In this document: positions 2,397 to 43,455 of the stretch, in pieces
How the letters are laid out: every line of letters begins with the position of its first letter
Position numbering within the stretch: the stretch's first letter is position 1
From: Cetorhinus maximus
Taxonomy: Eukaryota
Reading direction: 5' to 3'
Assembly (NCBI RefSeq): GCF_964194155.1
Contig: NC_135893.1
Span: forward strand, 84,754,001-84,818,000
DNA length: 64,000 nt
Translations under genes and position numbers: made by a program
Notes under the pieces: generated by a model
Seen by the model: only the letters and a program-made list of their open reading frames with translations
Told to the model about the DNA's origin: nothing
Databases searched by the model: none

Positions 2397-5300
2397 CTGC
2401 AAAGAGATTCATCATATCTGTTAAAGTCAAGTGTTCTTCTTTCTTTTGTAATACTGCTGATAATTACCATGACTTTTAATGCAAGAAAGATTATGTCCCC
2501 ACACGGTTCAAGGAAGAAAAGCTTAACCGCAGTCCTGACGCTGAAATATTATTGCTCAGGCAGTGAGTCCATGAGCTTGCAAGTGCTAAACCCCTACAGG
2601 TACCTGTCTCCCTGCTTTGCTGGCTTTTCGTTTCAACCCCTCATAAAACATGAACTGGATTCCAGGATTACAGACCAAGATAAGGGATGGTAGGATCCCA
2701 TTCCAGAGAGTTCCCACACCTTCGTTTGTGATGATCTGTTGAAAGGCATCTGAAGAGAAAGGGGCAGTTAAATTTGACAACACTTTTCCTCCAACATACC
2801 CTGACGTCTCACCCACTACATGTTGATTACAACACCCCCCCCCCACCCCCCCGCATCCCCAAATATTATGGCCAGTAATGTTCCTCAGTTTGGCACAGCT
2901 GGCATTCTGTGTGGCTAAGATATAATGACATTGAGTTATATAGAATATATAGTACGGAAACCCCAGACCGACCAACCCATGCCAGCATTGATGTTCCAAT
3001 CGAGCTTCCTCCCATCCTTCCTCATCCTAATGCTCAGCGTGACCTTCTATTACTTTCCCCTCATGTGTTTATCTGGCTCACCCTTAAATGCATCCATACA
3101 AATCGCCCAACCACTTCCTATAATAGCAACTTCTACATTCTTACCACTCTGAGTAAGAAGTTTTTGAATTCTTTATTTGACTTCTTAACTATCTTACGTT
3201 GATAGTTGTATCTAGGTTTGCTCTTCTCTACAAGCGGAAACACTGCATCTACTCCATCAAAACCCTTCATAATTTTAAAGACCTTTATTAGACCCCTATT
3301 AAACAATGGTTTGTTTTTGCTTTTTACTTAGAATTCTACTAATCCAAAGAGAAGGTAAACAGCAACTGGGCTTAGCTGTGTAAATAGTTCAGATCAAGAG
3401 ATTTAGATTTAGAGATCAAGTTGCCTCTTTTTTCTCTTCCACCCCACCATCTACCTCAACAAGAACCACTACCACTTATTCTATCCCTCAGCCAAATGCT
3501 GCAAATATTATTCATGAAGCTTCTTTATCTTAAAAAATTATACTTTGTTTACTTTAATATTTGCAACATATGCTAGTTTGGTGCAGCCGTGCACAGCACT
3601 ACATTGAGTGCTTGTCCACAAAGTTCTCAATCCCAATCTGGCACAACAAGTGCCAAAGTGTCTGAGGCAAGAATCACAATGGGGCTGGTCTCTGGCACCT
3701 CGTCACAAGAAGTTTAGGTCAGCCTGTGAGCTATGATTTTGGCAGTGGCTGGTGGATTAAAGGCTGCGAATATACAAACTAAACAGTTGATAATTTGCCT
3801 AAGTAATCTCATAAAATAAAACAAATCGACTGGATTTTCCCTTTTGTTAAAGAAGAAATTGTGACTAATCTCTATGTTGCTTTCTCCACTCGGTCAAACT
3901 GAATTAAGTTCCTATTGAAAATGAGGAAAAGATTAAGGACAGACTAACATATTTTGACTTGATTGTGCAGTTTGGTCAGAATGCAAGAATATTTCATTTT
4001 CAGATATTGGGGGTCTGATGGTCTGGGGAGCAAAGGGGAACCCAACTTCAATATTTGTTACAGTTCCAGAACCAATTCAAGATTTTTATACTAAACAAAG
4101 TGGCCTGCTGTAAATAGTGATTTTCCACACCATCATGCTCACCCTCTCCCATTAGTCAATACTACAATTTAACAGTGAATGGGTTCCTTTTCCTTGCTGA
4201 CACAATCACGCAAACTATTTTTAATTTCCACAGTAATTTTTCTTTGTATTTCTAAGTGCTGAAGCAGAAAGGATTTACTGAAAACAGTTCATTTACTAGT
4301 TTGAAGACTCACCGAGAATACCTTTGTACTCAGTCTGATGGACATCCTCTTTTCGAAACTTTGCTCCTTGCAGTTTCAATCTTGTATTGACTACCCACAT
4401 TGGCGTTGTTAGGACAACATTAGTAGCACCTAACCAAACAAATAGGCGATTAATTCTACAAATTCCCAATGACGGCCCTTTAGTAAGTGCAGGTTGATCA
4501 TTGTATACCAGTGCATAATATATGAATTCTAAATTGCTATATAATACATCACAGTTTGCAGCATGGGAATGGGCTTTCTCTTTTAAACAACTGTCACATT
4601 CTATCTGGAGATCTGATGGCTGCCTTAATTAAAGCACAATGTCAAGAGTTGTACCAAAAATTTGGATTTCATTTCAAAATGGATTATGCCAGCAAAGCAA
4701 AAGGACCAAGGTAAGTGGAATAACCCTGCCCCCAGCTGAGATCAGCTCATTTAGAATAGGCCGAGGAACTGAATTTGGGACATTCCTTATCGGTGCTGCT
4801 CAGCCCCTCAATGATGGATAAAATCAATCAGGCAGATAGCAAAACCCTCGCCTGTAGTTGCCTGACCCAATTAAACAAATGAGAAGGCTTTCTCCCCATA
4901 ATCGCAAAGTTCAAGAATTTTACTTTGACTAGTCCTCTGAGTCCACCCACTATTGTGCATCTCATCACTTACAATCTCTCCTCAGTTCCATAGGCTCATC
5001 CAAAATTCTGCTACCCAGGTCCTGACTCGTATCAAGTCTTGAGTCCGTATGACTCTTCTTCTGAAGAGTCATACCGTCTCGAAACGTTAACTGTGTTCCT
5101 CTCCGCAGATGCTGTCAGACCTGCTGAGTTTTTCCAGCTATTTTTGTTTTTGTTTCAGATTTCCAGCATCCACAGTATTTTGCTTTTATTGTATCAAGTC
5201 TTGTTCACCCATCACCTCTGTACTTGCTGGGTGACATGTGCAAGTGGCCAAGAGCCAATCTCCACAATTTCCATTGCTCCACTATTGATGGCCGTACCTT

Positions 5301-8300
5301 GAGCTGCCTAGGCCCAAGACTCCTTAATTCCCTCTCCGAATCTTCCCGTCTCTTCACCTCTCTCTCTTCCTGTAAGGCGCTCCTTAAAATCCACTTCCTT
5401 GATCGAGCTTTTGATCATTTAACCTAATATTTCCTCGTGTGACTCCCGGCACATTTTGTTTTATAATGTGCCTTTGAGATGTTTTATTAAATGAAAGGCG
5501 TTATACAAATACAAGTTGTGTTGCTATGAAAATTTATTTTATCAGTGTTTGTCATTATCATTCAGGAACTAAAGATCAAATTCTTGGAGTGATATTCTAG
5601 CACAGTTCTCAACTGATTAGGAATCAGTCACAGGATTGCCTAGAATCTAACAATTCTAATAATGAAGTCTGGACACAGGGCAAAAACAGAATTACCTGGA
5701 AAAACTCAGCAGGTAATTCTGTTTTTGTTTTGGATTTCCAGCATCCGCAGTAGTTTTTTGTTTTTATCTCTGGACACAGGGCAGCTTTCAACCCCATTAA
5801 GCATCATTCTCTACCTGCAATGCAACCCATCAGCAGATCTTTGCTTGGTGTAGCCCTGCCATTACCCTTCACCAACATTGCTTTCAGGCTGTTGAATGTG
5901 TAGAAGTAAACAAAGTTCGAACAGCAAACACTAGAAATGACAGGGAACAATCCACGATACAGAGCTGATCTGAAACAGAGAGAAAAGGGAGGCTCAGCAT
6001 TCTGTGCTTGACATTAGGAATCCCTCTGAGCAAACCAAACCACTAAGTATTTAGTAATTAACGGTCTCTAAGCCAGTTAGAAATGACACATTCCGACTCA
6101 CAACTAGGTCATGGATCAGAGGAGCTAAACCTGCAAATGCTGCCAGACATTATTTCTTGAAACCTATTGATGAAGGTCAGCCAGCAGCTGCAAAGAGGGA
6201 AATAATGGTTTTGGAATTTTCTGTGTGTATATCCTTCAGAGAGTGTGGTTGTCTTATGAAGGCTACACATCTGAAACAGCAGGATCTGTTGGCTCTGCCT
6301 GGATGCTAATTGACCCATTGATTTCCTTTTTTATTTTACTTTGAGTGACCGATTAATTTTTTTTAAAAATCATTTAATCTGTTTGAATTGCATTGGTACA
6401 AAATAAACTGCCATACTTGAACACATCACTTATTTCTGAAACTTAATTCCCAACAATTACATAAAAAGCAGGAACAAATAGATTTACTTTGCACTCAGGC
6501 CCATTACCTGGTGAACATCACTAGCAGAATAAATACATTGAATAATGCAGCTGTTAAAAGATCAGCACTCTTTAATAAGGCAAGCCCAGATAAGCATAAG
6601 GGAGAAAGTATTGGAAGTATATGCTGATAGGTTGAGCTGAAGAGTGGTGGGGAGCATAAACACCAACATTGACTAGTCGGGCCGTATGGCCCACTTCTGT
6701 GCTTAGATTATGTAATACTCACAAGCCTTCCTCTTTCACAATTTCTGCCAGTATCACAGGTGTGGCGCTGGATTTACGTTTTTCATCAACTAAAGTAAAT
6801 GCAGGCAAGAATGAGGGGAGTTAGAAATCGGAGTGACTATTCTTAAGCAATATACATTACTGGCCAAAAATATATATGTACTGACCTCAAAATTTAGACA
6901 AATACTGTGTTTAATTTCTTTGTCCTTAATATTAGAATACCTCCAACCTATGGTCATTCTGCTCCTGAATGATGTATGCTACTACACCAGTGTGCAGACA
7001 GACTCAGTAAATGTGCTTGTACAGCTACATTAATATATTCTCTCTCAGGTCCAACCCTGACTTTGTTATCAAACCTGCCGACAAGGGCTGTTGTTGTCAG
7101 GCGTACTGATCTCTACCTCGCAGAGGTTGAGCACCAACTCGCAGACACTTCCTCCTACCTCCCCCTGGACCATGACCCCACCACCGAACATCAAGCCATT
7201 GTTTCCAGTACTGTCACTGACCTCATCTCCTCTGGAGATCTTCCCTCCACAGCTTCCAACCTCAGTCTTCCAACCTCAGACAGCCCGCTTCTACCTCCTC
7301 CCCAAAATCCACAAACAAGACTGTCCCGGTAGACCAATCGTGTCAGTCTGTTCCTGCCCCACAGAACTAATTTCTTCCTATCTTGACTCTGTTCCCTCTC
7401 CCCTTGTCCAGTTTCTTCACACTTACATCCGCGATTCCTCTGATGCCCTACATCATATCAACAATTTCCAGTTCCCTGGCCCCAACCGCCTCCTCTTCAT
7501 CATGGACGTCCAATCCCTCTGGACCATCATCCCCCACCAGGATGGTCTGAGGGCTCTCCGCTTCTTCGTTGAACAGAGGCCCGAACAATCCTCATCCACC
7601 ACCACCCTCCTCCATCTGGCTGAACTCGTTCTCTCACTGAACAATTTCTACTTAAACTCCTCTCACTTCCTCCAAATAAAAGGTGTGGCTATGGGTACCC
7701 ACATGGGACCCAGTTATGCCTGTCTTTTTATGGGGTATGTGGAACATTCCTTGTTCCAGTCCTGCTCAGGCCCCCTCCCACAACTCTTTCTCCAGTACAT
7801 TGATGACTGTTTCAGTGCCACTTCATGCTCTCGTCTGGACCTGGAAAAATTTATTAATTTTGCTTCCAATTTCCACCCCTCCATCACTTTCACATGGTCC
7901 ATCACTGACACTTCCCTTCCCTTCCTTGACCTCTCTGTCTCAATTTCTGGTGATAGACTGTCCACCAATATTCATTATAAGTCCACCGACTCCCACAGCG
8001 ACTTCGACTACAACTCCTCACACGCCGCTTCCTGTAAAGACTCCATCCCATTCTCTCAGTTCCTTCGCCTTCTTCGCATCTGTTCTGATGACGCCACTTT
8101 CTAAAACAGTTTCTGACATGTTTTCCTTCTTCCTTAACTGAAGTTTCCCACTCATGGTGGTTGACAGGGCCCTCAGCCATGACTGACCCATCTCCCGTGC
8201 CTCTGCCCTCTCCCTCCCAGAACCATGATAGGGTCCCCCCGTCCTCACTTTTCACCCCACCAGCCTCCGCATTCAAAGGATCCTCCTCCAGCATTTCTGC

Positions 8301-11300
8301 CAACTCCAGCATGATGCCACCACCAAACACATCTTCCCTTCACCTCCCCCCCCCCCGTCAGCATTCCGTAGGGACTGTTCCCTCTGGGACACCCTGGTCC
8401 ATTCCTTCATCACCCCAAACACCTCAACCCACCCCCACGGCACCTTCCCATGCAATTGCAGAAGGTGCAACACCTGCTCCTTTACTTCCCCTCTCCTCAC
8501 CATCCAAAGCCCAAACACTCCTTTCAAGTGAAGCAGCATTTCACTTGCACTTCCCTCAATTTAATCTACTGCATCCGCTGCTCCCAATGCGGTCTCCTGT
8601 ACATTGGAGAGAGCAAATGCAGACTGGATGACCGCTTTGTGGAACACCTTCGGTGTGTCCGCAAGCATGACCCAGACCTCCCTGTCGCTTGCCATTACAA
8701 CACACCACCCTGCTCTCATGCCCACATATCCATCCTTGGGCTGCTGCAATGTTCTAGTGAAGCTCAACGCAAACTGGAGGAACAGCACCTCATCTTCCAA
8801 TTAGGCACTTTACAACCTTACGGACTTAACATTGAGTTCAACAACTTCAGACCATGAACTCTCTCCTCCATCCTCACCCCCTTTTTTCAAATATTTATTT
8901 TTAAATTTTTCATTGTTTTATCCCCACCTTTTAGCCTATTTCAATCTTTTTTCCCACACCGTTCCCCTCCCCCCACCCCACCTCACCCCTACTAGGGCCA
9001 TCTGTCACTTGCTCATTCTACTTTCTACTCTTAATGTAACCATTAGCACCTCCTTTAACCAGTATCACCACTATCACCACCCCTTCGATCTTTTGTTTAT
9101 GACATCTTTTGCAATCTCTCCTTTGCCTCCACCTATCACTGTCCTTCTATCCAGCTTCAGCTGTCCCACCCCCTTAAACAGTATATATTTCACCATATTT
9201 TTACTTCTCTTTAGTTCTCAAGAAGAGTCATACGGACTTGAAACATTAACTCTGTCTTTCTCTCCACAGATGCTGTCAGACCCACTGAGTTTTTCCAGCA
9301 CTTTTTGTTTTTGTTTCAGATTTCCAGCATCCGCGGTATTTTGCCTTTACATTAATATATTAACTAGTGTCCAAATTTTCTCTTTAGTGTCAGAATGTTT
9401 ATTCACGGGTTGATAGCAAAACTTTTCTGCGTTAAGCAAAAGGTTACACTGCTAGTTTGTGGGCAGTCAAGGTCTCAAGTCTTGTTACCCAGACAGACGG
9501 TCAAGACCAGGACACTAGACTCATTTACTTAGAAAATGTCAGCTAGATCATGTCATGGGGAGGCGATAGGGCTAGTATTCTGAAAGCATGAGATCAGAAT
9601 GGCCATTGGACCTTCTCCATCCAAAGCAGTCTTATGATCATGAGACAGTCAAGGAAATAGATGGAACGTTGCAAAATAGTAGAAGTGCTTGGACTGAATT
9701 CATTTTTCATTAGTGAAATTAGAGAACTGTTAAACAGGAAATAATTATCACGAGTCAGTAACATTCTAGGCATAAACGAGTGCAAGTTTTATGCATTTGT
9801 TTTTCTTAAATCAGCTCTATCGACCTACAAATCCATCTTGAGATCCTCATTTCACCTTCAAACAGCCACATGGCTTTGCTTCAGTGAAATATCAGAAGTC
9901 ACCTCAGTGACTTCCTTCAGCCCCGTGTCCCCATTTACAAACCTTCGCTCATTCCACCACAACCCTGCCCTCAGGAGTACCCAACCAAAATCTGGAATTC
10001 ACTTCACACAGAGGGCGAAGGCTGGGGTCCCATTAACCATATCGAGGGTTAAGATACAGATCAACCATGATCTAATTAAACGGCAGAGTAGGCTCGAGGG
10101 GCTGAGTGACCTCCTCCTGTTCCTAAAATCCTTCCACCTAACTCCCTCCTTCCGTTTTCTCTTCCATTGCTTGTTTGGCCTAGCCTCTTAACTCCCTCCA
10201 CACTGGTGTCCATTTTACTCACAAAAACCTATAAATCTCTGGTACATTTTCCCAACACGGTCATAGCTACTTAAAGCACAAACTGTTGGTTCAAATTATG
10301 AATACCAGTTACTTGAAATATTTTAATCAAAAATAATTTCAATAATGAATAGGCGTACTATAAAAATCCAAATTGCAACAACATAAAAGCAGTTTGCTTT
10401 GTAATTCTATACAGTGATTTGGGGCTATAAGTAGTTTTTTTTTACTGTATAAGCTGTAGGTTCAGAAAAAACTGGATTATTTATGTTACAATTCCAACCT
10501 TGAAGTCGTATCCTCGCAGTGTCCAAAGGGAAAAACGTTGTTGTGGCAGTCACACTACCCTGCAGAAAACAAAGTGAGGGAAAAGAAGTGTTATCCTGCA
10601 CTTTCCAAAAAGGGTCCTATAATAGTAATTGGAGGAGGGAGTGCTGACACATATTCCTCGCTCTAGTCCAAGGACACTGGCCTGGCCCAACCAACTCCAA
10701 CCCAGTACCATTAAGTCATTGGGAGCATGTCCCACCTGTTTGGTTTAAGCTGATTTTTGAAAATTAACCAATCACATCCTGGGGTTCCTGGATCACAGGG
10801 TCAATAGACTGAACTTAGTTGAAATAATTGCAGTGAGACAACAATAGTCAACTAATGGTCTCAAATCATTTAGAAATAGGCAGGTTTTAAATTCATTCTC
10901 AATGTGTGGGCAACTCTAACACTTAGTTCCCATCCCTAGTTTGAAAGAGACTAAAATTGGAATGTTGGATATTAAAATAAGTATTTTATGTCAGACGATA
11001 AGCACAATTGATAAAACGTCCCCCTTGCAGTTTGATGACTTATGCAACTAAATGACATGACCTAGGAAATAGGAGTAGGAGTAGGCCATTCGAGCCTGCT
11101 CCGCCATTCAACTAGATCATGGCTGATCTTCTACCTCAATGCCATTTTCCTCACTATCTCCACGTTCCTTGATGTCTTTAATATCTAAAAATCTATCAAC
11201 CTCTGTCTGCCTTGAAGATACTCCATGACTGAGTCTCCACAGCCCTCTGAGGTGGAGAATTCCAAAGATTCACCAGCCTCTGAGTGAAGAAATTCCTCCT

Positions 11301-12996
11301 CACCTCAGTCCTACCCTTTATTCTGAGACTGTGTCCCCTGGTTCCTAGAAGCTCAGCCCAAGTGAATCATCCCTTCCTGCATCAAACCTGTCCAGCCCTG
11401 TAAGATTTTTGTATGCTTCAAAGGAGATCACCTCCCCAAGCTTCTAAACTCTAGGGTGGGGCTTAAACCTCCAAACACCTGGTTCAGGGGCAAAACAAAA
11501 ACAGAATTACCTGGAAAAACTCAGCAGGTCTGGTAGCATCGGCGGAGAAGAAAAGAGTTGACGTTTCGAGTCCTCATGACCCTTTCAACAGAACTGAGTA
11601 ATATTAGGAGAGGGGTGAAATATAAGCTGGTTTAAGGTGGGGGGATGGGGGGAGAGAAGTTGGGGGGGGCGTTGTAGGGACAAGCAAGCAGTGATAGGAG
11701 CAGATAATCAAAAGATGTCACAGACAAAGGAACAAAGAGGTGTTGAAGGTGGTGATATTATCTAAACGAATGTGCTAATTAAGAATGGATGGCAGGACAC
11801 TCAAGGTACAGCTCTAGTGGGGGTGGGGTGGAAAGACTAACAGGGCATTAAAGGTATAGATTTAAAAATAATGAAAATGGGTGGGAAAAGAAAAATCTAT
11901 ATAAATTATTGGAAAAAACAAAAGGGAGGGGGAAGAAATGGCCACTCCATTTATGTTAGTGACCTCTTCAAAGAAATTCACCACCTTTGTTAAAAAATAG
12001 CAATAAAGTTTGAAAAGTAACAATTAAGAAGAAAACATTAGTGACAGAGCCTTAAAATACGCAGTTGAGGTGGAGACAGGTGATACTCTATTGTTGATGA
12101 ATATAAATATTACATTTGGAACTGGTAACAGGATAAAATCACATTTTAAAAAGACATTATCTTCATGTCAAATAGAGAGCTGCACAAACATATTATTGAC
12201 ACGCACATAAAAAAAGGGAAAACCGCATCAAAACACTCAAGTGACTAGAACAGCCCACATTTCTACAGCCTCTTTCCACAGTGTCAGAAAGGCTGGGAGC
12301 AGAAAACTAGACGAAGGGACGGTGAGTGGGATCGATGAGGAAGGAGAGCGGGGCAGGTAACCAACCCAACTCGATCACAGGGTTATTTCCCAAAAGATGC
12401 TGCGCGACCGAAACCAGATGGTGCGTTTCAGCCTCAAGTACATGAGCGTCTCCTCCAGGCGGCCCGCTTCTCTCGCCCCTCAAAGAAAAGTTTGATCAAA
12501 CTGTTCCATGAAGACATCTTTTTTTTTTTCACCCCGTTTGAAAGAGATCTGGTCTGAATCTGGATTTAACAGGTGGGCCCTTTCACACAACATCACATCA
12601 CACAGAGCAACACGAATGACTGCATTTCCGCATTGTCAAATCAAACAAGGGAACCGCTGTTGACACCCGAATAGAGCTCACCCTCGGTGCTCACATTTAA
12701 AACTCATCATTAAATCAGAACAGTTCAAGGGACGCTCGACTGAATCTTTAACCGTGCAATTACCAGGAGGAAGAATTCGACTCCAATTTCCACACTGCAC
12801 TCATGCCTGGCGAGGTTAGACACAAGGGGCTGTTATGTGTTTCTAACTGGAGATCCCTGGTGCACGATCAGCCCCCCGCCGCCCCGGGTAAAGGTTCGTT
12901 CACTAACTCCACATCCTTACAACTTACCACAACCCCGGCCACGGCATGGACAAGGGTCTCGTAGGAAGCGAGCGGGGACCCGGCAGAGGCCTTCAT
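2301..12996 (-). CDS. SLC25A17: SLC25A17/PMP34-like peroxisomal solute carrier, exons 1-7 (3' partial)
   Basis: Exons 12928-12996, 10499-10559, 6723-6789, 5815-5969, 4313-4429, 2604-2749 and 2301-2396 splice in frame (711 nt, all GT-AG). Carrier motifs [16 protein letters not shown] and PLQIVQAI match PMP34. Probably the '-like' paralog rather than the true ortholog. Confidence 0.92.
2604..2749 (-). CDS. SLC25A17: SLC25A17-like exon 6
   Basis: [49 protein letters not shown]; 146 nt. Confidence 0.92.
2925..3300 (-). mobile_element. CR1-like LINE 3' fragment
   Basis: Decayed CR1 3' end with tail similar to other copies. Confidence 0.55.
4313..4429 (-). CDS. SLC25A17: SLC25A17-like exon 5
   Basis: [39 protein letters not shown]; 117 nt. 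Confidence 0.93.
4960..5525 (+). mobile_element. L2-like LINE 3' fragment interrupted by a Penelope terminal element
   Basis: Similar to 44370-45340; tail ending atacaaatacaagttgt. Confidence 0.55.
5042..5190 (+). mobile_element. Penelope-derived terminal mini-element with 5' inversion
   Basis: 13-bp TSD gtatcaagtcttg (5029-5041, 5191-5203); matches the 3' end of 7040-9347. Confidence 0.85.
5683..5768 (+). mobile_element. Penelope-derived terminal mini-element with 5' inversion
   Basis: 15-bp TSD tctggacacagggca (5668-5682, 5769-5783); 17-bp inverted repeat. Confidence 0.85.
5815..5969 (-). CDS. SLC25A17: SLC25A17-like exon 4
   Basis: [51 protein letters not shown]; 155 nt. Confidence 0.93.
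6723..6789 (-). CDS. SLC25A17: SLC25A17-like exon 3
   Basis: (V)[21 protein letters not shown]; 67 nt; GTGAGT donor. Confidence 0.92.
7040..9347 (+). mobile_element. Penelope-like retroelement (RT + GIY-YIG endonuclease), 5'-truncated, frameshifted
   Basis: RT motifs [21 protein letters not shown] and YIDD (ORF 7091-8104). GIY-YIG motif [15 protein letters not shown] (ORF 8450-8857). 14-bp TSD tacattaatatatt at 7026-7039 and 9348-9361. Confidence 0.93.
10499..10559 (-). CDS. SLC25A17: SLC25A17-like exon 2
   Basis: ttttctgcag acceptor; [20 protein letters not shown]; 61 nt. Confidence 0.92.
11062..11455 (-). mobile_element. CR1 LINE 3' end
   Basis: Matches the 3' end of the 29118-31567 copy. 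Confidence 0.8.
11492..11940 (-). mobile_element. Penelope-like 3' terminal (pLTR) fragment
   Basis: Reverse-complement homolog of about 8900-9320. Confidence 0.8.
11556..11595 (-). ncRNA. Minimal type I hammerhead ribozyme-like motif (Penelope-associated)
   Basis: agtt-CTGTTGA-aa-gggtc-atgag-gactc-GAAA-cg-TC-aact: stem I, core, stem II and a palindromic stem III. The core is non-canonical and activity is untested. Confidence 0.55.
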
Positions 12997-14050
12997 TATC
13001 GCTCCAGCAAACGAAGGCAAAGACTGCCCGCCAAGTCAGCGGAGAGGAGAGACACTTCCTCCAACACCGGCTCCTCCCACTTGCAAACAGCCCACACCCT
13101 TTACACCACATCCCCGGGAAATACTCCCGGCAAGCGCCTGACTCCCCAAAACCCGAGTGCAGACACAACTGGGCGAGATGTAAACCCACTGGCACAGTTA
13201 AAATCGGACCCAGAGTTTTCCAGTAAAAACCCATTGACCAACCAAAGTGTGGTTATAGATGCAGCAATTTAGCCACAGACACTAAATTGGGGGGGAAAAA
13301 AACACACACAAGTGTATATTCCCCATGTGTTACTTGTGACCAGCACCAGCGACCAAGGAAATAATGCAGCCAAAATAAAAAATACACTCAGGTGCTCTAC
13401 TTTTCATCTTACAAACGCACTCAGGGTTAAAGTTTACCCGGTACCATATATCTATTGTTTATTTCTCACTTATTAGAAACGGAATCAGCCGCCTCTGGCT
13501 GGTGAACGGCAAAGCAGGGGAGAAAGAAATGTGTTTAAAAAGATTGAGAAGAAAGATTGCGTTTCGGACACTTTCAAAAGATTCGCAGCCGCACAACCTC
13601 ATCTTCATTTATTTTTCAAAGATGCAAAGTGTTGGAATTCGGAAACAACAATGGCAGAAATAGGGGTAGGAGCAAAGGACGGCCATTCGGCCCATCGAAC
13701 CGGTTCCGCCATTCAACGCCGCGGAAAATGCTGCAAATATACGGCAGATCAGTCAGGATCTGGGAGAAAATACACAGTAACTCTCGACGAGGGGCTATAG
13801 AGACATTAATCTATTTTTCTCTTTGCTGGAGATACAAGACCCCCTGACCCAGGGGCTGTTGAACTTGCAAACCAGGAGCACAGAGTTACTTGTAAAGACC
13901 CCCTAAACAGCAGTCGGTACCGGGAGAGGTCAGTGTGAATCACCCCCGCCCGCCCGATGCAATGGCCCCATCCCCCCTCACGCGGCTGGCTGCATCAGCG
14001 GAGCCGATAACTTGCATTTACTTAGCGCCTTATGCAACCACAAAGCGTCC
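12300..14050. promoter_or_regulatory. CpG-enriched promoter region of SLC25A17-like, head-to-head with ANKS4B
   Basis: Visibly higher CpG density around exon 1; start codons at 12996 (-) and 15165 (+) diverge. Confidence 0.55.
12928..12996 (-). CDS. SLC25A17: SLC25A17-like exon 1
   Basis: [23 protein letters not shown] followed by donor GTAAGT; lies in a CpG-rich region. Confidence 0.9.
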
Positions 14051-15041
14051 CAACCCATTTCACAGCCAAAGAAGTACTGCTGAAGTGTAGCCACTGTTGT
14101 GGTCTAACCCGGTGTCCAATCTGCACACAGCAAGGTCCCACAACCAACATTCACTAAAACCCCTTATCTGGTCACTATCACATGGTGGGAGTTTAGCCAG
14201 CTGGCTGCTGTTTCCTAATTCAGTGGCCGCACTTCAAAAAGTGCTTGTGAGAAATTGGTTGTACAGGAAGGGCTTAGGAACGTAAAAAGTGCTATTTAAA
14301 TATCTTTCCACTATAGGCTGCATTTACTTTCTGTGCCATGTTGGGAGCCCCTGAAATACTGTGCAGTCACTTGAGTGTTGCTTGCCTAGTTTGACATGGA
14401 CGGGGTCTCCCTATTCAATGACTGAATCCGTCTTTAATGGTTCACTGACCACCGCCCCCTCCCCTTCCCCCTCCCGTGGATCTCTGGCTGCCAGCGGCTG
14501 CGTCCGCACAGAAGAATATAATTATGAATATGAATTCATTATGCTTCTCAACCGGAATAATTTACTGCACTACAAGGACATCGAATGGAAAAAGAATTTC
14601 CAGTCTTGACATCAGCCTATAATCCAAAGGTCGGTGGGTGTTATAATGTTATTGCTCTTTAAGGTCGTTCCGCCCTTTCTAAATCAAAATGAATAATGCA
14701 AATAAAATGACACAAAAAAAAACCCCTGCTGAGGATTCAGTTGCAAATATTAGAGACACAACTGATGCAAAATAGCGAGAACGTTGCATTGTGGAAAAAA
14801 ATCGCAAAAGCAAATCAAGTTCCTTTTTCCAGATGAACAGACATTGCGAGCGACCTCTGAAATGTGCAAACACATCAACTCATTTGTTTGCAATTCAGTT
14901 TAAAACGACAAATGGTTCCTTTCTTTTTGCAAAATGCGCCTTTTGCCAAACAAAAAGAAATATTGTGCTGAAGAACCGCGGGAAACAGGACCTGAGATTA
15001 GTTTGCCAGCTGGGCTACCTTAAATTGCAGTTCCTGGCGAG

Positions 15042-15054
15042 TGGACTTTGTCCT
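15042..15054 (-). promoter_or_regulatory. HNF4 DR1 element in the ANKS4B proximal promoter
   Basis: TGGACTTTGTCCT (reverse complement AGGACAAAGTCCA) contains the HNF4-type CAAAGTCCA, about 110 bp upstream of the ATG. Confidence 0.65.
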
Positions 15055-15164
15055 TAATGTCCCAGTTTGGGCGGTGCCGCTACATCTCTGGGTTCTCTCA
15101 CTCACTGGCTGCTTGGCTCCTGATGCTTGCAGTGTGTGCGGGGGGCAGCCTGAGGATTTGAACC

Positions 15165-15328
15165 ATGTCTGACAGGTACCACAAGGCAGCTAGGGATGGA
15201 TACCTCGGCCCCCTTAAGGAGGCCACCAGGAGGGATCTCAACAATCCGGATGAGGATGGGATGACCCCGACCCTTTGGGCGGCGTATCACGGGCATCTGG
15301 AGGCTCTTCAGCTCATCTGTAGCAGAGG
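15165..15328 (+). CDS. ANKS4B: ANKS4B exon 1
   Basis: accATG; [55 protein letters not shown]; GTGAGT donor. Confidence 0.93.
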
Positions 15329-18300
15329 GTGAGTGTCAAAACCTGGTTCTCAGACTGTCATTCATGTTTTTTCTTGTCTGGTGATGCATGGGTTCTGGCA
15401 TGTCGGCTGTTTCAGAGGGTAACACTCTCGCCTCAAAAGGAGTCAAAAGGTCGTAGGTTCAAGATACCCTCAAAAGGCTTGAGCACATAACCCAGCCTGA
15501 GCAGCACTGAGGGAGTGCTGCATTGCCGGAGGTGCCGTCTTTTAGATGAGACTTTAAACCAAGGCCCCATGTGGCCCCTCAGGTCGATGTAAAAGACCCC
15601 ACAGTACTATTCTGAAGAAGAGCAAGGGAGTTATTCCAGGTGTTCTGTCCAACATTTATCCCTCAGCCAACAGCACAAAACCCTTCTATAACAACACTTC
15701 CAACACATCTTCCTTTGTCGTCAGCCAAGGATTCACCCGCCCCACTGTGTTTGACATGGATCCTCAACCATGTCCGACCCATTTCCTGCGCTTCTGCCCT
15801 CACCCCTTCCTAGAACCACGATGGGGCCCCCTTGTCCTCACTTTACACCTCACAAGCCTCCTCATTCAAAGGATGTATCTGCCACCAAATCCAGCATGAT
15901 GCCACTACCAAGCACATCTTTCCCCTCCCCTCCCCTGCCCTGTCAGCATTCCAAAGGGACTACTCCCTCTGCGACATCCTGGTCCACTCTTCTATCACGT
16001 TCAACACCTCGTCCCCTTCCTAAGGCACCTTCCCATGCAGACACAGGAGGGATAACAGCTGCCCCTTTACCTCCTCTCTCCTCACTATCCAAGGCCTCAA
16101 ACACTCCTTCCAGGTGAAGCAGCGATCAACTTGCACTTCCTTCAATTAGGTCTACTGTATTCGCTACTCATAATATGGTCTCCTCTACATTGCACTTCCG
16201 TCTGAGCATGGATTTTGCTCTCCCGGGCCCAGCAGCCACTTTCCACGGCCTTGCCAATGCAATCCGAGGTGCATTGCCCTTAGCCGCCTTCCCGGCCGGC
16301 TTCGGGACTTTCCCGGGGCTCCAACTGGGGCAAATCCGGTCCCTCAGGTGAGGGGGAGCCGTCCCCGGGCATGCCCAGGCTTCAGGCCACTGCTTTTCAA
16401 GCCCAACCAAAAGACGGGAAAAATGCCGAAAATGCACAAAAATGGCCGCCCGGCAGGGCCTCGCGGTCGGTTTGGCGGCAGCCTTGGTCGGTCCCTGCAG
16501 ACCTGGAGGCTCGAGAAGGCACTTGGTGCTGTTGACTGAATCTTGATTTGCCACCTCCTACTAATCTGCAGATATTGGAAGTCGGACTAGGACCACTTTG
16601 CAGAACAGCTGTGCTCAGTCCACAAGCATGACCCTGACCTTCCGGTTGCTCGCCATTTTAATTAATCATCTTGCTCTCATGCTCACATTTCTGTCCTCGG
16701 CCTGCTGCAGCATTCCAGTGAAGCCCAACACAAGCTGGAGGAACAGCACCTCATCTTCAGGCACTGATCAGGCACTTTACAGCCTTCTGGACTCAACACT
16801 GAGTTCAACAACTTCAGAGACCATGAATGCTGTCCTGAATTTTAATTCCCCCCCCCACCCCCCCACCCCAAGTGCCAGTGTGTATCTAGTTCGGACTGAG
16901 CTGACCTTTGTTCTGCTATTTACACCTACTCTGGACTAAACCTTTGTTTCTTTAATACTATCATTACTGCTCCCTTTGCCTTTGGTTCCATGACATCTTT
17001 GCCATTTAGTCTCCCCTGCCCTCTAACTCTAACCAATCCCTGACCTCTTTTGCTCCACCTGTCCCTCTGCCCCTTTTTAACAGTATAAAACCCATTACAT
17101 TCCTCCTTCTCTTCAGTTCTGAATAAGTCATATTGGACTCAAAATGTTAACTCTGTTTCTCTTTCCACAGATGCTGCTAGACCTGCTGAGTTTTTCCAAC
17201 ACTTGTTTTTATTTCAGATCTGCAGCATCTGCAGTATTTTGCTTTTATCACAAAACATTATCTGGTCATTATGTCATTGCTTTTTGTGGCACAAATTTAG
17301 CAGCCAAGTTTCCTATATTACAACAGTGACCACACTTCAAAAAATCCTTCATTAGCTGGGAAAGTGTTTGGGACATCTTGAGGTTGTGAAAGGCTCTATA
17401 TAAATGCAAGCCTTTCACTATTTAATTTTACAAAGAACAGTTTAATCATTGTTATTTTTAAATATTTGCATGTTTTACATTTGCTTTCCAATGTTTCCTT
17501 TATTGGTTGGGAACTAATTTTGTAAATGTGTTTTGAAATGACAGACATTGAGAGAACTGCTACAGGTTATTCAAGGTCTAAGTTGACAAGCTTTCCTTAA
17601 ACCATGTGTCATTTGGGGTAAAGAAGCAGACACAAAAAAACCCCAGATATTTTTGGAAACAAACAGTAGGTCAGTTTGTAGAAAGAAATTATGTATTAAT
17701 ATTTCAAGGGTGTGGCCCTCATCAACATGAATTGATGCCACAACCCAAGTCATGGTTCAGTGTTGTCTGCCTATGTCATTGCTAGTAGTAATTGTAAATA
17801 GATAGAAGTTATTTCCCGTCACTGTCAATACACACAAACCTGAGGGTTCAAAGTGTATAACCATTCCAGTCACACCCTGGGAGAAAGAAAAAACGAAATA
17901 TTGGCATTTATGATAGCACTGTCAACCACAACCTCAGGTGTTCCAAAACGCTTTACAGTCAATGAAGTAATTTATGATGTGTGGTCACTGTTGTAATGTA
18001 CAGATCGCAGTAGCCAAGTTACAGCCAGCAAGCTCCCACAAAGAGCAACAGGATAATGACCAGACAATCTGTTTCAGTGATATTGGTTGAGGGATAAATA
18101 TTCACCAGGACACTGGGAAGAACTCCCCTGATCTTCTTTGAATAGTTCAATGGGATCATTTACATCCACCTAAGAAGACAGACAGGGCCTTGATTTAAAT
18201 CTCATCTGAAGGACTGGCACCACTGACAGTGCAGCACTCCCTCAGTATTGCAATGGCTTATCAGCTTGGATTTAAGTGCTCAGGTCTCGAGTGGGATTTG

Positions 18301-19934
18301 AACCCACACCTTCTGACTTAGAGACCAGAGTGCCAAAAACTTTAATTAGTGGACACAGTCTGTCTCACAAGTTGTTAAAAGTGTTGAAAGTGTCTAGTAG
18401 AATTCATTGTCTTGCTCAGTTTGACACTTGTCTAGGCTAAGGCCTCAGCCTGCACTGAGTGAGCTGGCCTTTGTTGACTTTGATCTGGTTGGGAAATTGG
18501 TGAAGCTACTGTTGGCTTCAGCAGCCCTGGAGAGAGGGGAAGTCAGCCTCTTTTCTGCTTCTGATCTTTTTGGAAGCCTGTCAGTGCAGGTCACAAGTTA
18601 GATCAGGCTTGGCCATGATCCAGGTTAAAGTGTCAAGAATGTCCACTTGGGTAAAGTATCAGAGGGCCAGAGCCCAATATGTGTCACCAGCTCCAGGAAA
18701 AGATGGGTAAGGGGATAAAGTTAGAGAGGCTGCACCAAAAGACTTGCTGCATATTGTAAAACCCTGTACTAAATCAACTCTTTGTGGTTTGCCTTTCAGA
18801 GGCGATCCTGACATATGCGACATCTGGGGCAATACCCCCTTGCACCATGCTTCAACCAATGGCCACCTTCACATTGTCACTTTCTTGGTCAACTTTGGTG
18901 CAAACATTTGGGCTTTGGATAATGATTTCCATTCTGCCATGGATGCTGCAGCCAATAAGGATCGAATGGAATGTGTCCGCTTCCTGGACACAGCTGCCAC
19001 CAAGCAAACCATCATGAATCCTAAACAAATCGCCAGGCTAAAGGAGAAGGCGATAAAGGACAGCGAAAAACAGATCAAAGTGTGTGAAAGACGCAAGAAA
19101 AAGCACCAAAATCGGATGAACAAGAAATATAGCCAGGAGATGGAAGGCCAAAGGAATGGTGCTGCCCCCGTACAGAGTGGGACTGTATCTAGTGTCAGTG
19201 ATCTTTTCAAAGCAGGTGGATCACAACGCATAGGTGGCATTTCTTCCATCATGAAAGGATCCCTGCAGAAGAGACTTAAGAAGAAGGATAACAGCAAAAG
19301 CATCATGGAGCAGCAACTAGGAAAGGATGTCATCTTTGTCAGTCAAGAAGGGAGCAGTGGGATTCGGGCCAATGTATTGGATGTGTTTAATGAAAGAGAT
19401 GAGGAGAATGCAGCCTCCCTCGATTTGAAGTGCTCTGAACATGATAATAATTTTGGCCATGAGTCTCTCTTCAATCGACCTGGTTTGGGGAATATGCTTT
19501 TCAGAAGGAATTTTGTCTTGGGTTTGAATGTGGAAGAGGAAATGTTCAGCAACAATGAGGTGGAAGATGTTGGTTCCAAATTGCGTAATGAAGTATTGAA
19601 TCCCAAGGAAAATTTTACCGATCCTGAAACCTTTCATGGATTCAATGAAGAACAGGAAGATGATTTGCCCTGGAATGAGGATGATATAGGTCTAGATGAT
19701 GACGAGCCTGAGACAACGCCACTTGAAACTTTCTTGGCATCTCAGAACATGACAGAGTTCATCCCGATCCTGGCAAGAGAGCAGATTGACCTGGATTCCC
19801 TCATGCTGTGCACTGATGGAGATTTGAAAGGCATCCATCTGCCACTTGGACCACGGAAAAAGATTATTTCTGCAGTGGAAAGAAGAAAATTAATCTTTGA
19901 AACACCAAACAAACTAGTGGATACCGTATTGTAA
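15165..19934 (+). CDS. ANKS4B: Ankyrin repeat and SAM domain protein 4B (432 aa, 2 exons)
   Basis: Exons 15165-15328 and 18800-19934 give 1299 nt. N-terminal ankyrin repeats, C-terminal SAM domain and PDZ-binding tail VDTVL. Tail-to-tail with CRYM as in mammals, which favours ANKS4B over USH1G. Confidence 0.92.
15410..17415 (+). mobile_element. Deu-domain tRNA SINE split by a Penelope-like insertion (15682-17248)
   Basis: SINE halves at about 15410-15681 and 17249-17415; TSD cacaaaac; the insert has GIY-YIG remnants and the pLTR tail. Confidence 0.8.
16193..16583. mobile_element. Unclassified GC/CpG-rich insertion inside the Penelope fragment
   Basis: Interrupts the GLLYIG codons; absent from the homologous position (about 8600) of the 7040-9347 copy. 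Confidence 0.65.
17900..18340 (-). mobile_element. Deu-domain (AmnSINE/SacSINE-like) SINE
   Basis: Core gtgcagcactccctcagta, tRNA-like head and L2-like tail. Further copies near 20095-20330, 32170-32480, 34850-35210, 53190-53590, 57650-57890 and 60915-61130. Confidence 0.8.
18800..19934 (+). CDS. ANKS4B: ANKS4B exon 2
   Basis: cctttcag acceptor; [15 protein letters not shown]...LGPRKKI...VDTVL-stop. Confidence 0.95.
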
Positions 19935-24279: not shown

Positions 24280-24545
24280 TTCAATAGGGAATTCAGGATA
24301 AACTTCTTTTTCCAGAGAATGGTGACAATATGGAACTCACTACCACAAGGAATGGTTGAGGTGAATAGTATAGATACATTTAAGGGAAAGCTAGATTAAC
24401 AGATGAGGGAGAAAGGAATACAAGATTATGCTGACAGGGCGGGATGAAGAGTGATGGGAGGAGGCTCGTGTGGAGCATATACACCAGTATGGACCAGTTG
24501 GGTGGAATGGCCTGTCCCAAATGGCTGTAGACTCGATGTAATTCT
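24280..24545 (+). mobile_element. CR1 LINE 3' fragment
   Basis: RINFFFQRMVTIWNSLP remnant plus tail. Confidence 0.65.
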
Positions 24546-25892: not shown

Positions 25893-39796
<13,904 letters not shown>

Positions 39797-39931
39797 ACCG
39801 AGAGGGCAGCAGGACTCCTGCCCGATGGTCACGAGTTTGGAAAGCTCTTCAATTTTACCTCGGCAGTCCTAGTCTGTTCACTAGTGACTCGGAACCAGAG
39901 AGACTCAATCAAGCACAATTTGCTGAACGAC

Positions 39932-39956
39932 CTGATTAAACATTAGCTTTTTATAA
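39932..39956 (-). promoter_or_regulatory. Candidate CRYM core promoter (TATAAAA plus HNF1-like site)
   Basis: TATAAAA at 39949-39955 (-) with adjacent GCTAATGTTTAAT, about 150 bp upstream of the ATG. Confidence 0.35.
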
Positions 39957-40164
39957 TAATGCTTCAGTAATATGTCACTGATAATATGCACTGTGTATCC
40001 AATAATGTGCACTGCCAGCCAGTGAACCATTGGGACAGCCTTATTTGCATTTTTCTATAAAAACTTCACAAACTATTAATCTGAAGAAGAGTTAAAGATA
40101 TGTTGCGTTTATGCAAAGAAAATAAGTGTAAATTGTAAGAATTTGGTGATAGATGAGGGAAAAA

Positions 40165-40980
40165 AATATTCGTTCACGAAATGTGATGTCGCTGGCATAA
40201 CCAACATTTATTGCCCATTTGTCATTGCCCTTCAGATGGTGGTGGTGGTGAGCCAACTTCTTAAACTGCTGCAGTTCCTGTGGTGTAGGAACGGTCATAG
40301 TGCTGTTAGAAAGGGAGTTCCAGGATTTTAACCCAGTGACAGTGAAGGAACGGCAATAATAGTTCCAAGTCAGGCTGGTGGGTGACTTGAGGGAGAACTT
40401 GCAGCTGGTGGTACCTGCTGCCCTTGCCCTTCTAGGTGGTAGAGGTTGTGGGTTTGGAAGGTGCTGTTGAATGAGTTGCTGCAGTGCACCTTGTTGATTG
40501 TATACATTGCCAATGTTGTCAGGAATGAATGTTTAAGGTGGTGGATGGGGTGCCGATAAAGTGGGCTGCTTTGTCCTGGATGGTATTGAACTTCTTCAGT
40601 GATGTTGGAGCTGCACTCATCCAGGCAAGTGGAGAGTATTTCATCACACTCCTGACTTGTGCCTTGTCAGGAATGCAATGCTTTGGGAAGTCAGTGGATG
40701 AGTCACTCATGACAAAATTTCTAATCTCCGCCACAGTATTTATATAGCTGATCCAGTTACATTTCTGGTCAATGGTAACCCCCAGCATGTTGATGTTGAG
40801 GAATTCAATTATGTTAATGCTGTTGAATGTCAAGGATGGATGCTTGGATTCTTTATTGTTGGAAATGGTTCTTGTGTGATGTGAATGTTACTTGTTACTT
40901 ATCAGTCAAAGCTTGAATGTTATCCAGGTCTTGCTGCATGAGGCACTTATCTGAAGAATTGTGAATGGAACTGACATTAT
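40165..40980 (-). mobile_element. LINE 3' fragment (family of 1-2283)
   Basis: ORF 40519-40833 with the same C-terminal motifs. Confidence 0.82.
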
Positions 40981-40987
40981 TAGCATA

Positions 40988-42044
40988 TGTCAGTCTTGGT
41001 TTTGCTCATTACGCACAAGAGGGGGGTTAATTTAAACAGCCCTGATTTCTCCTCTCGCCACCCATCCCTAAACAGAAAGGTGTTTTGATTTCCCCCTTTA
41101 TAAGCGGAGGCATATTTCCTAATCCCTCAGTTTTGGTGTGATCCAATTTTGTATTAATAACCCCACAGCAAACTCAAGATAGGATGAATTCAAAGGGTTA
41201 GTTTTTTAGCACATTCTCAAATGCGGGAGGGAGGGTCACAATGTAGCCCCCTTTGCATTCATACAATAAAAGAAGGGTAGAGAAAAGAAAGATTTACAGG
41301 GCAAAGTCCACAGGGAAAATAATTATTGTTTCACATGGGTCCACAGTCCAGAATCAACATCCAATGAGGTATTCCTTCACATAGATCAGCAGGTTGAAAA
41401 CTGACGCTGTATAATTCACTTTTCTGATGGAGTTGACTTCACATGATGAGATAGGCATGCAAAGATGAATCAGTCTTGTAGGCAATGATACAGGAGTTCC
41501 AGTAGTAAAAGTGTAAATGGGACCAGATATTCAATCTGGACAGAGCCCCTTTTCTATGAGGCTGTTTGTAGATGGTAAATGGCAGACTAAGTTCTGCAGT
41601 TCCATAAGGCAACATTACTGGTTCCACAAGCTAGGTCCAAGCCACATGACTCTCACCTCTCCACAACGGCTTTGACAAAGGGAGTCCCTTTGTCTGGGTC
41701 CCTGAGATTGTTAAATGTTCCAACCATTAAGTCTTGAAAGGAAGGTTGAGTGTTCTTTGTCCTGGCAGGTGAATAGGCTACAGTTGACCAGTTTGGCTTA
41801 TGAAATGTAGATTGCCTTTGTGTAGTTCTCTTTGAATTTGGTCTCTGCAGCCCACAGTGGGTCATCAGTGTCTCTTCAGAGATAGCCAGGTGCAAGTTTC
41901 CGCGATAGTGCCATGGGACACAGACAGGCATAGCTTCAGCCATTTTAAAATGTCTTTGTCCAGTTTTTAAATTTTTAGAAATATCCATGAGAATATCTAT
42001 ATCTATATATAAAATGTCCAGCATGAGGCCTTAGTCCCCTCACA
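40988..42044. mobile_element. Solo-LTR-like repeat, copy 2
   Basis: Starts tgtcag, ends ctcaca; abuts or splits the head of the SINE that resumes at 42045. Confidence 0.65.
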
Positions 42045-42480
42045 ATCTCATCTCTGCATCAGAAATTTGTGGGTTCAAGTTCTACTCGTCTGACTTGAGC
42101 ATAAAATCTTGACTCATGCTGCCAATGCATACTGAGGGAGTGCTGCACTGTTGGAAATATTGTCTTTTCAATGAGACATTAAACCAAGGCCCCTTCTGCT
42201 CTCTCAGGTGGATGTAAAAGATCCCATGGCACTACCACTCAAAGAACAGCAGGTGTCCTGGCCAATATTTACTCCTTAACTAATGTTACTAAAACAGATG
42301 ATATGGTCATTATCACATTGCTGTTTATGGGAGCTTGCTGTTTGCAAATTGGCTGCTGTATTTCCTACAACAATTGAAAAAGTATTTGCTGCACTTCAAA
42401 AGTATTAATTTGCAGCAAAGTGCTTTGGATATTCTGATGTTATGGAAGGTGTTAAAGAAATGCAAGTTCCTTCTTTATAG
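42045..42480 (+). mobile_element. Deu-domain SINE
   Basis: Box B gggttcaagt; core actgagggagtgctgcactg; tail aaatgcaagttccttctt. Confidence 0.82.
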
Positions 42481-43352
42481 GCATATGTTTGCATATACAA
42501 GATGGAGACAAGAGGGAAGAATATTTCAAAGTTATTAATCTGGGTATCGAGTGGCACTATTGTTAAGGAAAGTCTAACTATATATATATATATATTTAGC
42601 ATTGCTTAAAACATCTTTCTCTCACTACAAAGGCTTAGCTTAATAACTGGGTTTGCATACAATATACAGGGAGAATAAAGCTTAATTGCATATAATTAAC
42701 ATGTGGTTTTGGAAGTCTACATTTATATTTAGGGATGTCATGTCTTTGGAAGTAATGTTAATTACAGTCATGTAATTATTTGGTACATAATACTTAGCTA
42801 TTTATCCTTCACTCATCGCATATAGTTCTTGTATGTATCTTCATGTAAATTTGACCTCATTAAATTACAAATTATTCTCCTGGGGAAATGAAATACATTG
42901 TAACAACCTGTGATTCTGCAAATTGCCAAGGAAATGTTCATAATAAAAGCATCAAAGTTATTGTTAAATATTCAATTTCTAAATTTTCATTTAAAAATGT
43001 AACTTTACTGATTAATAAACAGCATTGCATATTCACTTTATTTCAATTTTTCTGAAGGCCTGCACCCAATAAAAGAACCAATCTCTCTGTCTCTCTATTC
43101 CATTTGCCATCTGCACATTTCTGTTAAATGTTCCATTTGTAGAATTGTACTGTCTTAATGCCATGTCACATATTAATTCCTTCATTACTGTCAGGTACCA
43201 GGAGGGCAGAGGAAATGTTTCAGGGATGTCCTCAAAGCCTCCCTGAAAAAGATGCAACATTCCCACTGATTTGTGGGAATCTCTCGCTCGAGACCACCCA
43301 AACTGAGAAGAAGGTGATTGAAGGAAAGGGAAATAAAGGACCACGAGAGCAG

Positions 43353-43455
43353 AAATAAAAACAGAAAATGCTGGAAAAACTTAGCAGGATCAACAGTATC
43401 TGTGGAGAGAGAAATAGAGTTAATGTTTTGAGTCCGTATGACTCTCCTTCAGACT
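43353..43455 (-). mobile_element. Penelope-derived terminal mini-element
   Basis: 10-bp TSD a(c/t)gagagcag (43343-43352, 43456-43465). Confidence 0.8.

What the first reader, a model, noticed from the sequence alone, without database searches (positions are those of the whole stretch)
5042..43455. Dispersed family of Penelope terminal mini-elements carrying minimal hammerhead-ribozyme-like cores
Seen: the 3' terminus of the Penelope element recurs about nine times (about 5042, 5683, 9213, 11492, 17115, 29767, 35001, 43353, 53015). Most copies carry all or part of agtt-CTG(AA/TT)GA-A-g(a/g)gtc-loop-gactc-GAAA-cg-T(C/T)-aact. This folds as a type I hammerhead: stem I agtt/aact, a 5-bp stem II kept in two subfamilies with different loops (atacg vs atgag), and a loopless palindromic stem III. 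Established: Penelope-like elements carry minimal hammerheads that cleave as dimers. Inference: these ~100-150 bp units with their own TSDs move as ribozyme-containing non-autonomous elements. The CUGUUGA core with extra A is an atypical variant.
Basis: partly seen in the sequence, partly recalled or inferred. Interest (0 to 1): 0.7.

Follow-up and report, generated by a model that had tools for sequence, protein, structure and literature searches.

The report
Penelope stubs stop at ribozyme edge
The nine repeats are shortened, mostly decayed ends of a very abundant Penelope-type jumping gene that carries a small hammerhead RNA motif (a known arrangement); many short copies begin at the motif's first base, likely the start of the uncut RNA, and most intact motifs in this genome have a normally fixed core A replaced by U or C, predicted to slow cutting.

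Summary
All nine copies exist; they are 3' ends (pLTR) of a Poseidon-type Penelope-like element (PLE) with RT and GIY-YIG genes. Three of nine are long truncated copies (0.45, 1.6, 2.3 kb), not mini-elements. Only 11556-11595(-) keeps the whole core; none of the short TSD-flanked units does. The minimal hammerhead is real: stem II shows compensatory changes between subfamilies, stem I none. The extra A before stem II is the published norm; the doubled A is private to that copy. Two things go beyond the literature I could search. (1) A6 to U/C is fixed in the commonest subfamilies (49,868 intact motifs versus 11,996 with A6). (2) 5' ends pile up at the first base of stem I (10 of 91 arms within 4 nt; about 7 times the downstream rate), 29-31 nt below a TATA-like box, and not at the cut site. 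Best reading: internally primed cDNAs run off the 5' end of uncut element RNA, leaving promoterless stubs; no separate non-autonomous family was found. Cleavage and the transcription start are untested. This scan noted the same in this and other shark-type genomes.

The parts
5042..5190 (+). Short insertion: 19-nt inverted arm, then forward arm from about +3 to the tail end; core has a 3-nt deletion (dead); TSD 5029-5041 / 5191-5203
5683..5768 (.). Head-to-head stub of the last 30-60 nt of the element, one arm tailed; no hammerhead; TSD 5668-5682 / 5769-5783
7040..9347 (+). 5'-truncated PLE copy (A-type), 2.3 kb, TSD 7026-7039 / 9348-9361
7061..8104 (+). Reverse transcriptase remnant of that copy
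   Evidence: Pfam RVT_1 E 2.4e-6, below the curated cut-off; translation
8540..8857 (+). GIY-YIG endonuclease remnant (start approximate)
   Evidence: Pfam GIY-YIG E 0.005, below the curated cut-off; motif visible
9182..9212 (+). TATA-like box and pyrimidine tract upstream of +1 (predicted core promoter)
   Evidence: position -29 to -31 in three families; function inferred
9213..9251 (+). Decayed minimal hammerhead (G5, C11.1 and G16.2 changed); 9213 = +1
11491..11938 (-). 5'-truncated, tail-less B-type copy, 448 bp; no TSD found
11556..11595 (-). Only motif in the window with all core bases: U6 core, stem II GGGUC/GACUC, one private inserted A; predicted cut between 11560 and 11559
15682..17248 (+). 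5'-truncated older copy with endonuclease-region remnants; decayed motif from 17115 (G12 lost); candidate 8-bp TSD 15674-15681 / 17249-17256
29766..29867 (-). Tail-less stub starting at +8 (no C3-U4-G5, G12 lost), inserted in a CR1-type RT ORF
35001..35111 (-). Stub starting at +2; +15 to +35 missing, so +14 is joined to the base after the predicted cut; TSD 34988-35000 / 35112-35124
43353..43457 (-). Tail-less stub starting at about +1; decayed core; TSD 43345-43352 / 43458-43465
53011..53091 (-). Old, tail-less stub starting at about +27 (GAAA side only); no TSD found

Best explanation
The nine loci are separate insertions of the hammerhead-bearing end of an RT/GIY-YIG Penelope-like element, and the short ones are likely cDNAs primed inside the element's own uncut RNA that either aborted or ran off the RNA's 5' end at the first base of the hammerhead. 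Shown: full-length elements read 3'UTR - motif (+1 to +39) - short end (about +101) - tail end (about +135) - ATG (+175) - RT - GIY-YIG - 3'UTR - motif - ends; two 3' ends; one tail per inverted pair; a 5'-end peak at +1/+2; no peak at the cut site (+36). Inferred: +1 is the transcription start (TATA-like box at -29 to -31, initiator match); reverse transcription starts at about +101 or +135 as in the anole element; priming at the 5' copy of these sites gives 100-nt or 135-nt promoterless stubs, priming at the 3' copy gives long truncated copies; both nicked strands are primed, giving head-to-head pairs. The motif is a dimer-type minimal hammerhead kept by selection on source elements, predicted to cut slowly, more so in the U6/C6 subfamilies; dispersed copies decay.
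For: Element anatomy from 5 of 29 loci that reach the 5' pLTR; B-type ends are also linked to RT/EN, 70-88% identical to the A-type protein. 5' ends of 91 B-type arms chosen only by a downstream 29-mer: 10 at -1..+3 (0.040 per arm-nt), 25 at +4..+59 (0.0055), 5 at -2..-100 (0.001). Repeats in 12 of 30 A6 loci by script, 14 by eye, and in spread samples, 10 of 67 arms at +1..+3, one counted twice. Genome-wide 5,817 matches lack the A at +1 (control 8) and 18 of 20 fetched are true ends at +2. +1 is also the top loose end in contigs of other runs (73 in X20, 12 in X3, 12 in X4). TATA-like word at -27 to -31 in 53 of 54 Y6, 9 of 11 C and at least 25 of 33 A6 promoter-bearing copies, initiator match in 91 of 98. 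No shared upstream exon in 24 peak arms and no strong donor within 700 nt. 21 of 23 inverted pairs have exactly one tail, p 3e-5. Short arms sit in all subfamilies, several identical to long copies. PMC11167929: internal priming at two sites, both strands extended, uncut RNA the main substrate.
Against: No RNA start was measured: only contigs were available. The YAG at -1..+2 with a pyrimidine tract also fits a splice acceptor, a CTRAY branch-like word is present in 43 of 54 Y6 copies (0 of 33 A6), and in D. virilis the intron ends at the 5' side of helix I (PMC4209133) with a TATA-less promoter further up (PMC2377424). No excess of a cap-derived G before +2 ends (about 6 in 10 T, 2 in 10 G by eye). 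In the first nearest-neighbour test 6 of 10 short arms had only short nearest neighbours; with more loci 14 were closer to long, 14 to short, 11 tied, where chance alone would favour long, so source elements may differ in how many stubs they give. The B sample is from the first 6.1 Mb of one contig. The active dimer fold is not the minimum-energy dimer for any of six subfamily sequences.
Confidence: 0.7

Rival explanations
1. The stubs are copied in trans from non-autonomous sources: ORF-less, promoter-bearing truncated copies (or the stubs themselves inside host transcripts) are transcribed and primed by the PLE protein, so a short ribozyme-bearing unit is amplified on its own.
For: A fixed unit exists (+1/+2 to +101 or +135); most long copies carry the TATA-like region; short arms are somewhat closer to each other than expected; pLTRs can mobilise sequence in trans (PMC3846280); retrozymes are proposed to derive from pLTRs (bioRxiv 10.64898/2026.07.22.740005).
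Against: No stub-specific clade or diagnostic change; stubs lack the promoter region; no captured host flank upstream of +1 in the solo stubs whose TSD abuts it; tail-to-head tandems 2 in the genome (pattern needs an A at the tail end, so variants are missed); the ribozyme is dead in all short units of the window.
Confidence: 0.15
2. The boundary at +1 is a splice acceptor or a protein roadblock on pre-mRNA at which RT stops, not the RNA's 5' end.
For: YAG in 93 of 98 promoter-bearing copies, pyrimidine tract, branch-like word in Y6 copies; same relative place as the D. virilis intron end (PMC4209133).
Against: No spliced junction in 24 peak arms, no strong donor nearby, none among the 15 joints shown (6 not shown); branch-like word absent in A6 copies that show the same peak; TATA-like word keeps its spacing in all three families.
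Confidence: 0.12
3. Ribozyme cleavage (and circularisation) defines the templates of the short units.
For: Proposed in PMC4209133; the window's 35001 copy has a junction exactly after the predicted cut; both arms of one inverted pair end at +36.
Against: Only 2 of 91 arms, one insertion, end at +36, at a palindromic site that favours fold-back; no peak in 155 arms screened round the site; the peak is 35 nt upstream; no reads at the cut site in the anole (PMC11167929).
Confidence: 0.03

Closest known systems
Minimal hammerheads (min-HHR) in pLTRs of metazoan PLEs, incl. fish Poseidon, Neptune, Xena (Cervera and De la Pena 2014, PMC4209133; read: parts 1-2 of 4 of the text, supplement file 2 part 2 and passages; file 1 not searchable)
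   Same: Type I, short stem I, unpaired base before stem II, G10.1-C11.1 in most families, palindromic GAAACGUH with no loop III, thousands of single copies tied to truncated PLEs.
   Different: All alignment rows I saw have A6 (consensus CUGANGAH); here U6/C6 is in 81% of intact 5-nt-loop motifs. No shark term found in the searched supplement. A 5'-end peak at the first base of stem I is not mentioned in what I read.
PAc, Poseidon element of Anolis (Frangieh 2024, PMC11167929; read: parts 1-2 of 4, supplement search without hits)
   Same: Two internal RT start sites giving the 30-40-nt tail, downstream of the hammerhead; both strands extended; uncut RNA used.
   Different: In PAc the ORF starts inside the ribozyme; here the main ATG is at +175, after the tail. 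Run-off stubs and the transcription start were not described in the parts read.
Complex insertions of EN+ PLEs: inverted 5'-truncated copy, one-sided tail, TSD (PMC3846280, PMC8557442; passages read)
   Same: Head-to-head pairs, tail on one end, 8-15-bp TSDs.
   Different: Here quantified (21 of 23 pairs) and with a fixed 5' stop.
Non-LTR retrozymes (PMC7229834, search listing only; bioRxiv 10.64898/2026.07.22.740005, part 1, passages and Discussion read)
   Same: Non-coding, type I hammerhead, pLTR-related.
   Different: Retrozymes are tandem arrays with a motif per unit; these are dispersed singles or inverted pairs.
Natural A6C hammerhead of phage Bcep176 (PMC3088659 section 8; PMC7151607 passages)
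   Same: Position-6 pyrimidine in an otherwise standard core.
   Different: Single phage motif with tertiary contacts; A6C cuts slowly in Mg2+ and well in Mn2+. A6U occurs in neither text (0 hits).

Membership tests
EN+ Penelope-like element (Penelope/Poseidon type) | One ORF with RT and C-terminal GIY-YIG endonuclease | tested here: met
   frameshifted copies, Pfam scores below curated cut-offs
EN+ Penelope-like element (Penelope/Poseidon type) | pLTR by partial tandem; inverted truncated copy; optional 30-40-nt tail; TSD | tested here: met
EN+ Penelope-like element (Penelope/Poseidon type) | Clade placement by RT tree (Poseidon versus Neptune) | not tested
   No tree built; 'Poseidon-type' rests on recalled likeness and on domain order
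PLE minimal hammerhead | Core CUGANGA + one base, GAAAN-palindrome-UH | tested here: met
   A6 families 11,996 hits, older family 350 hits
PLE minimal hammerhead | A at core position 6 | tested here: not met
   U or C in 49,868 intact motifs, incl. the window's best copy
PLE minimal hammerhead | Covarying stems I and II | tested here: inconclusive
   11 hand-picked haplotypes: stem II 55 of 55 cells paired, 2 of 5 pairs changed on both sides, a third via G-U; stem I no double change and broken in one subfamily; pairs-with-double-change 126 of 500 shuffles
PLE minimal hammerhead | Self-cleavage as dimer or with protein help | not testable with these tools
   needs assay
Non-LTR retrozyme | Tandem units each with a complete hammerhead | tested here: not met
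   none in the window; 2 tail-to-head junctions in the genome
Non-LTR retrozyme | Abundant circular RNA | not testable with these tools
   only contigs available
Independent non-autonomous (SINE-like) family | Own promoter inside the unit and own clade | tested here: not met
   TATA-like region lies outside the unit; no separate clade; an internal promoter was not assayed

The most novel reading that the evidence does not exclude
The element's RNA is terminally redundant (+1 to +135 at both ends) and copies like a retrovirus without a tRNA: cDNA that reaches +1 normally jumps to the 3' copy of the repeat and so rebuilds the promoter-bearing pLTR, the stubs are fossils of failed jumps, and the most successful subfamilies weakened their ribozyme (A6 to U/C) because cutting destroys that template. 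This would answer how pLTRs are regenerated, stated as open in PMC2377424.
Probability: 0.2. Interest if true: 0.8.

Novelty: new variant of a known kind. Interest (0 to 1): 0.42.

Why it matters
The ribozyme-in-pLTR arrangement is known, so the finding as written is mostly ordinary. What remains useful: the PLE copying cycle and the job of its hammerhead are open questions, and this genome holds thousands of junctions that place the template's 5' end at the first base of the ribozyme rather than at its cut site, plus a natural series of cores (A6, U6, C6) in subfamilies that all spread. Both make the question directly testable with short RNAs and cap mapping.

Tried and rejected
Rfam scan: no hammerhead family hit; uninformative for a loopless motif. 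Folding against shuffles: not significant; dimer energies did not favour the active fold. DNA searches with 73-nt 3' ends returned nothing because common words are skipped. RNA evidence: all runs are contigs of guessed RNA; depth and ends cannot show a start or expression; a tail-to-+2 joint in 6 contigs of run X20 prompted, which found only 2 such junctions here. Cap-G signature: not seen before +2 ends. Selection on single copies: core 6 mismatches in 708 against 17 in 944 in a control stretch, p 0.14, with a filter that biases it. First alignment had two misplaced rows and was replaced. The script failed for the older family, which I read by eye only. Subfamily age: nearest-neighbour distances (Y6 0.02, A6 0.08, older family 0.19) are biased by sampling, so 'younger' is an inference. 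Lunse et al. (PMC5785218) is not held; it reports many PLE hammerhead variants (recalled) and may include position-6 changes. Literature searches for the 5'-end peak or a shark report found nothing on point; subscription papers, the bioRxiv supplement and one supplement file of PMC4209133 were not seen.
Full report
Setting. The window is G000:C15:84754001-84818000 of a 3.99-Gb assembly. It holds an ankyrin-SAM gene exon and a BTB-BACK gene exon among many repeats. That the host is a shark is recalled from the look of the repeats and stated in earlier scan notes; I did not test it. Numbering: +1 is the A that opens stem I (window 9213+, 11595-, 17115+); the predicted cut is between +35 and +36.

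Observation. All nine loci are present. Three are long 5'-truncated copies: 7040-9347 (14-bp TSD, RT and GIY-YIG remnants), 15682-17248 (8-bp candidate TSD) and 11491-11938. Four short units have exact TSDs of 8-15 bp; two have none that I could find. No copy matches the strict intact pattern. Only 11556-11595(-) has every core base, with one private inserted A. In 118 spread 10-kb samples the same end gives 108 hits in 84 clusters, about 280,000 clusters genome-wide by extrapolation, so the window is about twice average.

The parent element. Of 29 loci found with the RT 5' part, five reach a 5' pLTR. They read motif, short end (about +101), tail end (+135 to +137), main ATG at +175, then a long ORF. 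The U6/C6 (B-type) ends are also attached to RT and endonuclease sequence. Thirty copies most like 9100-9350 have varied 5' ends and frequent inversions and stop at two places about 32 nt apart: the PLE tail, which in the anole element marks two internal RT start sites (PMC11167929). In 23 inverted pairs 21 carry the tail on exactly one arm (p 3e-5), as described in words in PMC8557442 and PMC3846280.

The ribozyme motif. It fits the published PLE min-HHR, including the unpaired base before stem II (PMC4209133). Across 11 haplotypes picked as subfamily representatives, stem II is paired in every cell, with G-C to A-U and U-A to C-G double changes and an A-U/G-U/G-C series; stem I has no double change and one subfamily breaks it; the count of doubly changed pairs is reached by 126 of 500 shuffles, so this is supportive, not statistical proof. 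Genome counts of intact patterns: A6 11,996, U6/C6 49,868, older 3-nt-loop family 350, reversed controls 0. The older family is mostly canonical CUGAUGA (20 of 25), so U6/C6 is likely derived. All cores read in the B sample had a pyrimidine at position 6 (64 of 64). Every row of the published alignment that I saw has A6. A6C is known from one phage and lowers cutting in Mg2+ while sparing it in Mn2+. Whether these motifs cut is untested; S. mansoni min-HHRs cut weakly as dimers and the anole motif needs protein.

Where short copies begin. I took the first 91 of 100 listed matches (of 39,698) to a 29-mer lying downstream of the motif. 5' ends: 25 at +4 to +59, 10 at -1 to +3, 5 at -2 to -100, 51 further up, many censored by the window used; one arm scored -10 ends at +2 by eye. 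The rate at -1..+3 is about 7 times the downstream and 40 times the upstream rate. The peak repeats in A6 loci (12 of 30 by script at -8..+3, two more by eye, 16 long), in spread samples (10 of 67 arms that passed filters, from 108 hits, one duplicate, a few old copies misplaced), in a genome pattern lacking the +1 A (5,817 hits; 18 of 20 fetched are real +2 ends, 10 in inverted pairs, 8 solo; three already-held matches were skipped) and as the top loose end in contigs of three other runs. At the cut site only 2 of 91 arms end, both in one palindromic insertion, and a wider screen of 155 arms shows no peak. In the window, 5042, 35001 and 43353 start at +1 to +3.

What +1 is. Promoter-bearing copies of three families with different upstream sequence keep a TATA-like word at about -29 to -31 and an initiator match at +1. 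The same bases also look like a splice acceptor, and the D. virilis intron ends at the 5' side of helix I with a TATA-less promoter upstream. Against splicing: 24 peak arms show no upstream exon, only inverted arms or target DNA, and there is no strong donor within 700 nt; the branch-like word is missing in A6 copies. Against a simple capped run-off: no G excess before +2 ends (by eye). No raw RNA reads were available.

Mechanism. Most likely the element is transcribed from +1, the protein binds near +101/+135 and primes from nicked target DNA on one or both strands; priming at the 5' copy of the site yields stubs that end at or before +1 and lack the promoter, priming at the 3' copy yields long truncated copies. 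The stubs are then by-products, not a family: they occur in every subfamily and several are identical over 66 nt to promoter-bearing copies, though they are somewhat closer to each other than chance would give, which leaves room for ORF-less source copies. Tandem arrays of the unit are nearly absent, so these are not retrozymes.

Novelty. Ribozyme in pLTR, tail, inversions and TSDs are known. The fixed U6/C6 core in the dominant subfamilies and the 5'-end peak at the ribozyme's first base were not found in my searches, with Lunse et al. unread. I reached these readings before opening the scan's notes (notebook); the notes show the same readings in this genome and at least eight others, which is not independent evidence. 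Verdict: new variant of a known kind, interest 0.42.

Noticed in passing
L045, L046, L039 (sense strand, +55 to +147 of the element): A 30-codon upstream ORF starts inside the repeat end, is in frame with the main ORF and stops 9 codons before its ATG; intact in 3 of 5 full-length copies. A strong pyrimidine-AG acceptor-like site lies just before the main ATG.
   Followed up: partly
window 35001-35111 (-): +14 is joined without microhomology to the base right after the predicted cut; could be a template switch from a cleaved RNA or a plain deletion; single case.
   Followed up: partly
L062:1627-1665: The U6U7 core can pair with the GAAACGUCAAC side in predicted folds, an inactive alternative not available to the C6C7 subfamily.
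   Followed up: partly
L289, L321, L330 and others: An A-type subfamily has AGCU in the 5' strand of stem I with unchanged AACU, a fixed C-A mismatch; the AGCU palindrome often forms the centre of head-to-head junctions.
   Followed up: partly
L369:1500-1530, L370:1500-1525: The only two tail-to-head tandems found; in L369 the two units come from different subfamilies, which suggests a jump between two RNAs.
   Followed up: partly
L304: A B-type tail is joined to the TATA-like region of an A-type copy.
   Followed up: no
window 18799-19934 (+): Exon of an ankyrin-repeat and SAM-domain gene (Pfam); resembles USH1G/ANKS4B by recall.
   Followed up: no
window 53808-54510 (+): Exon of a BTB-BACK (kelch-like) gene.
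   Followed up: no
window 29204-31237 (-), 36627-37124 (+), 26196-26593: CR1-type LINE fragments; the 29767 stub interrupts one RT ORF.
   Followed up: partly
window 16170-16590: About 400 bp of GC-rich unrelated sequence interrupts the 15682-17248 PLE copy.
   Followed up: no
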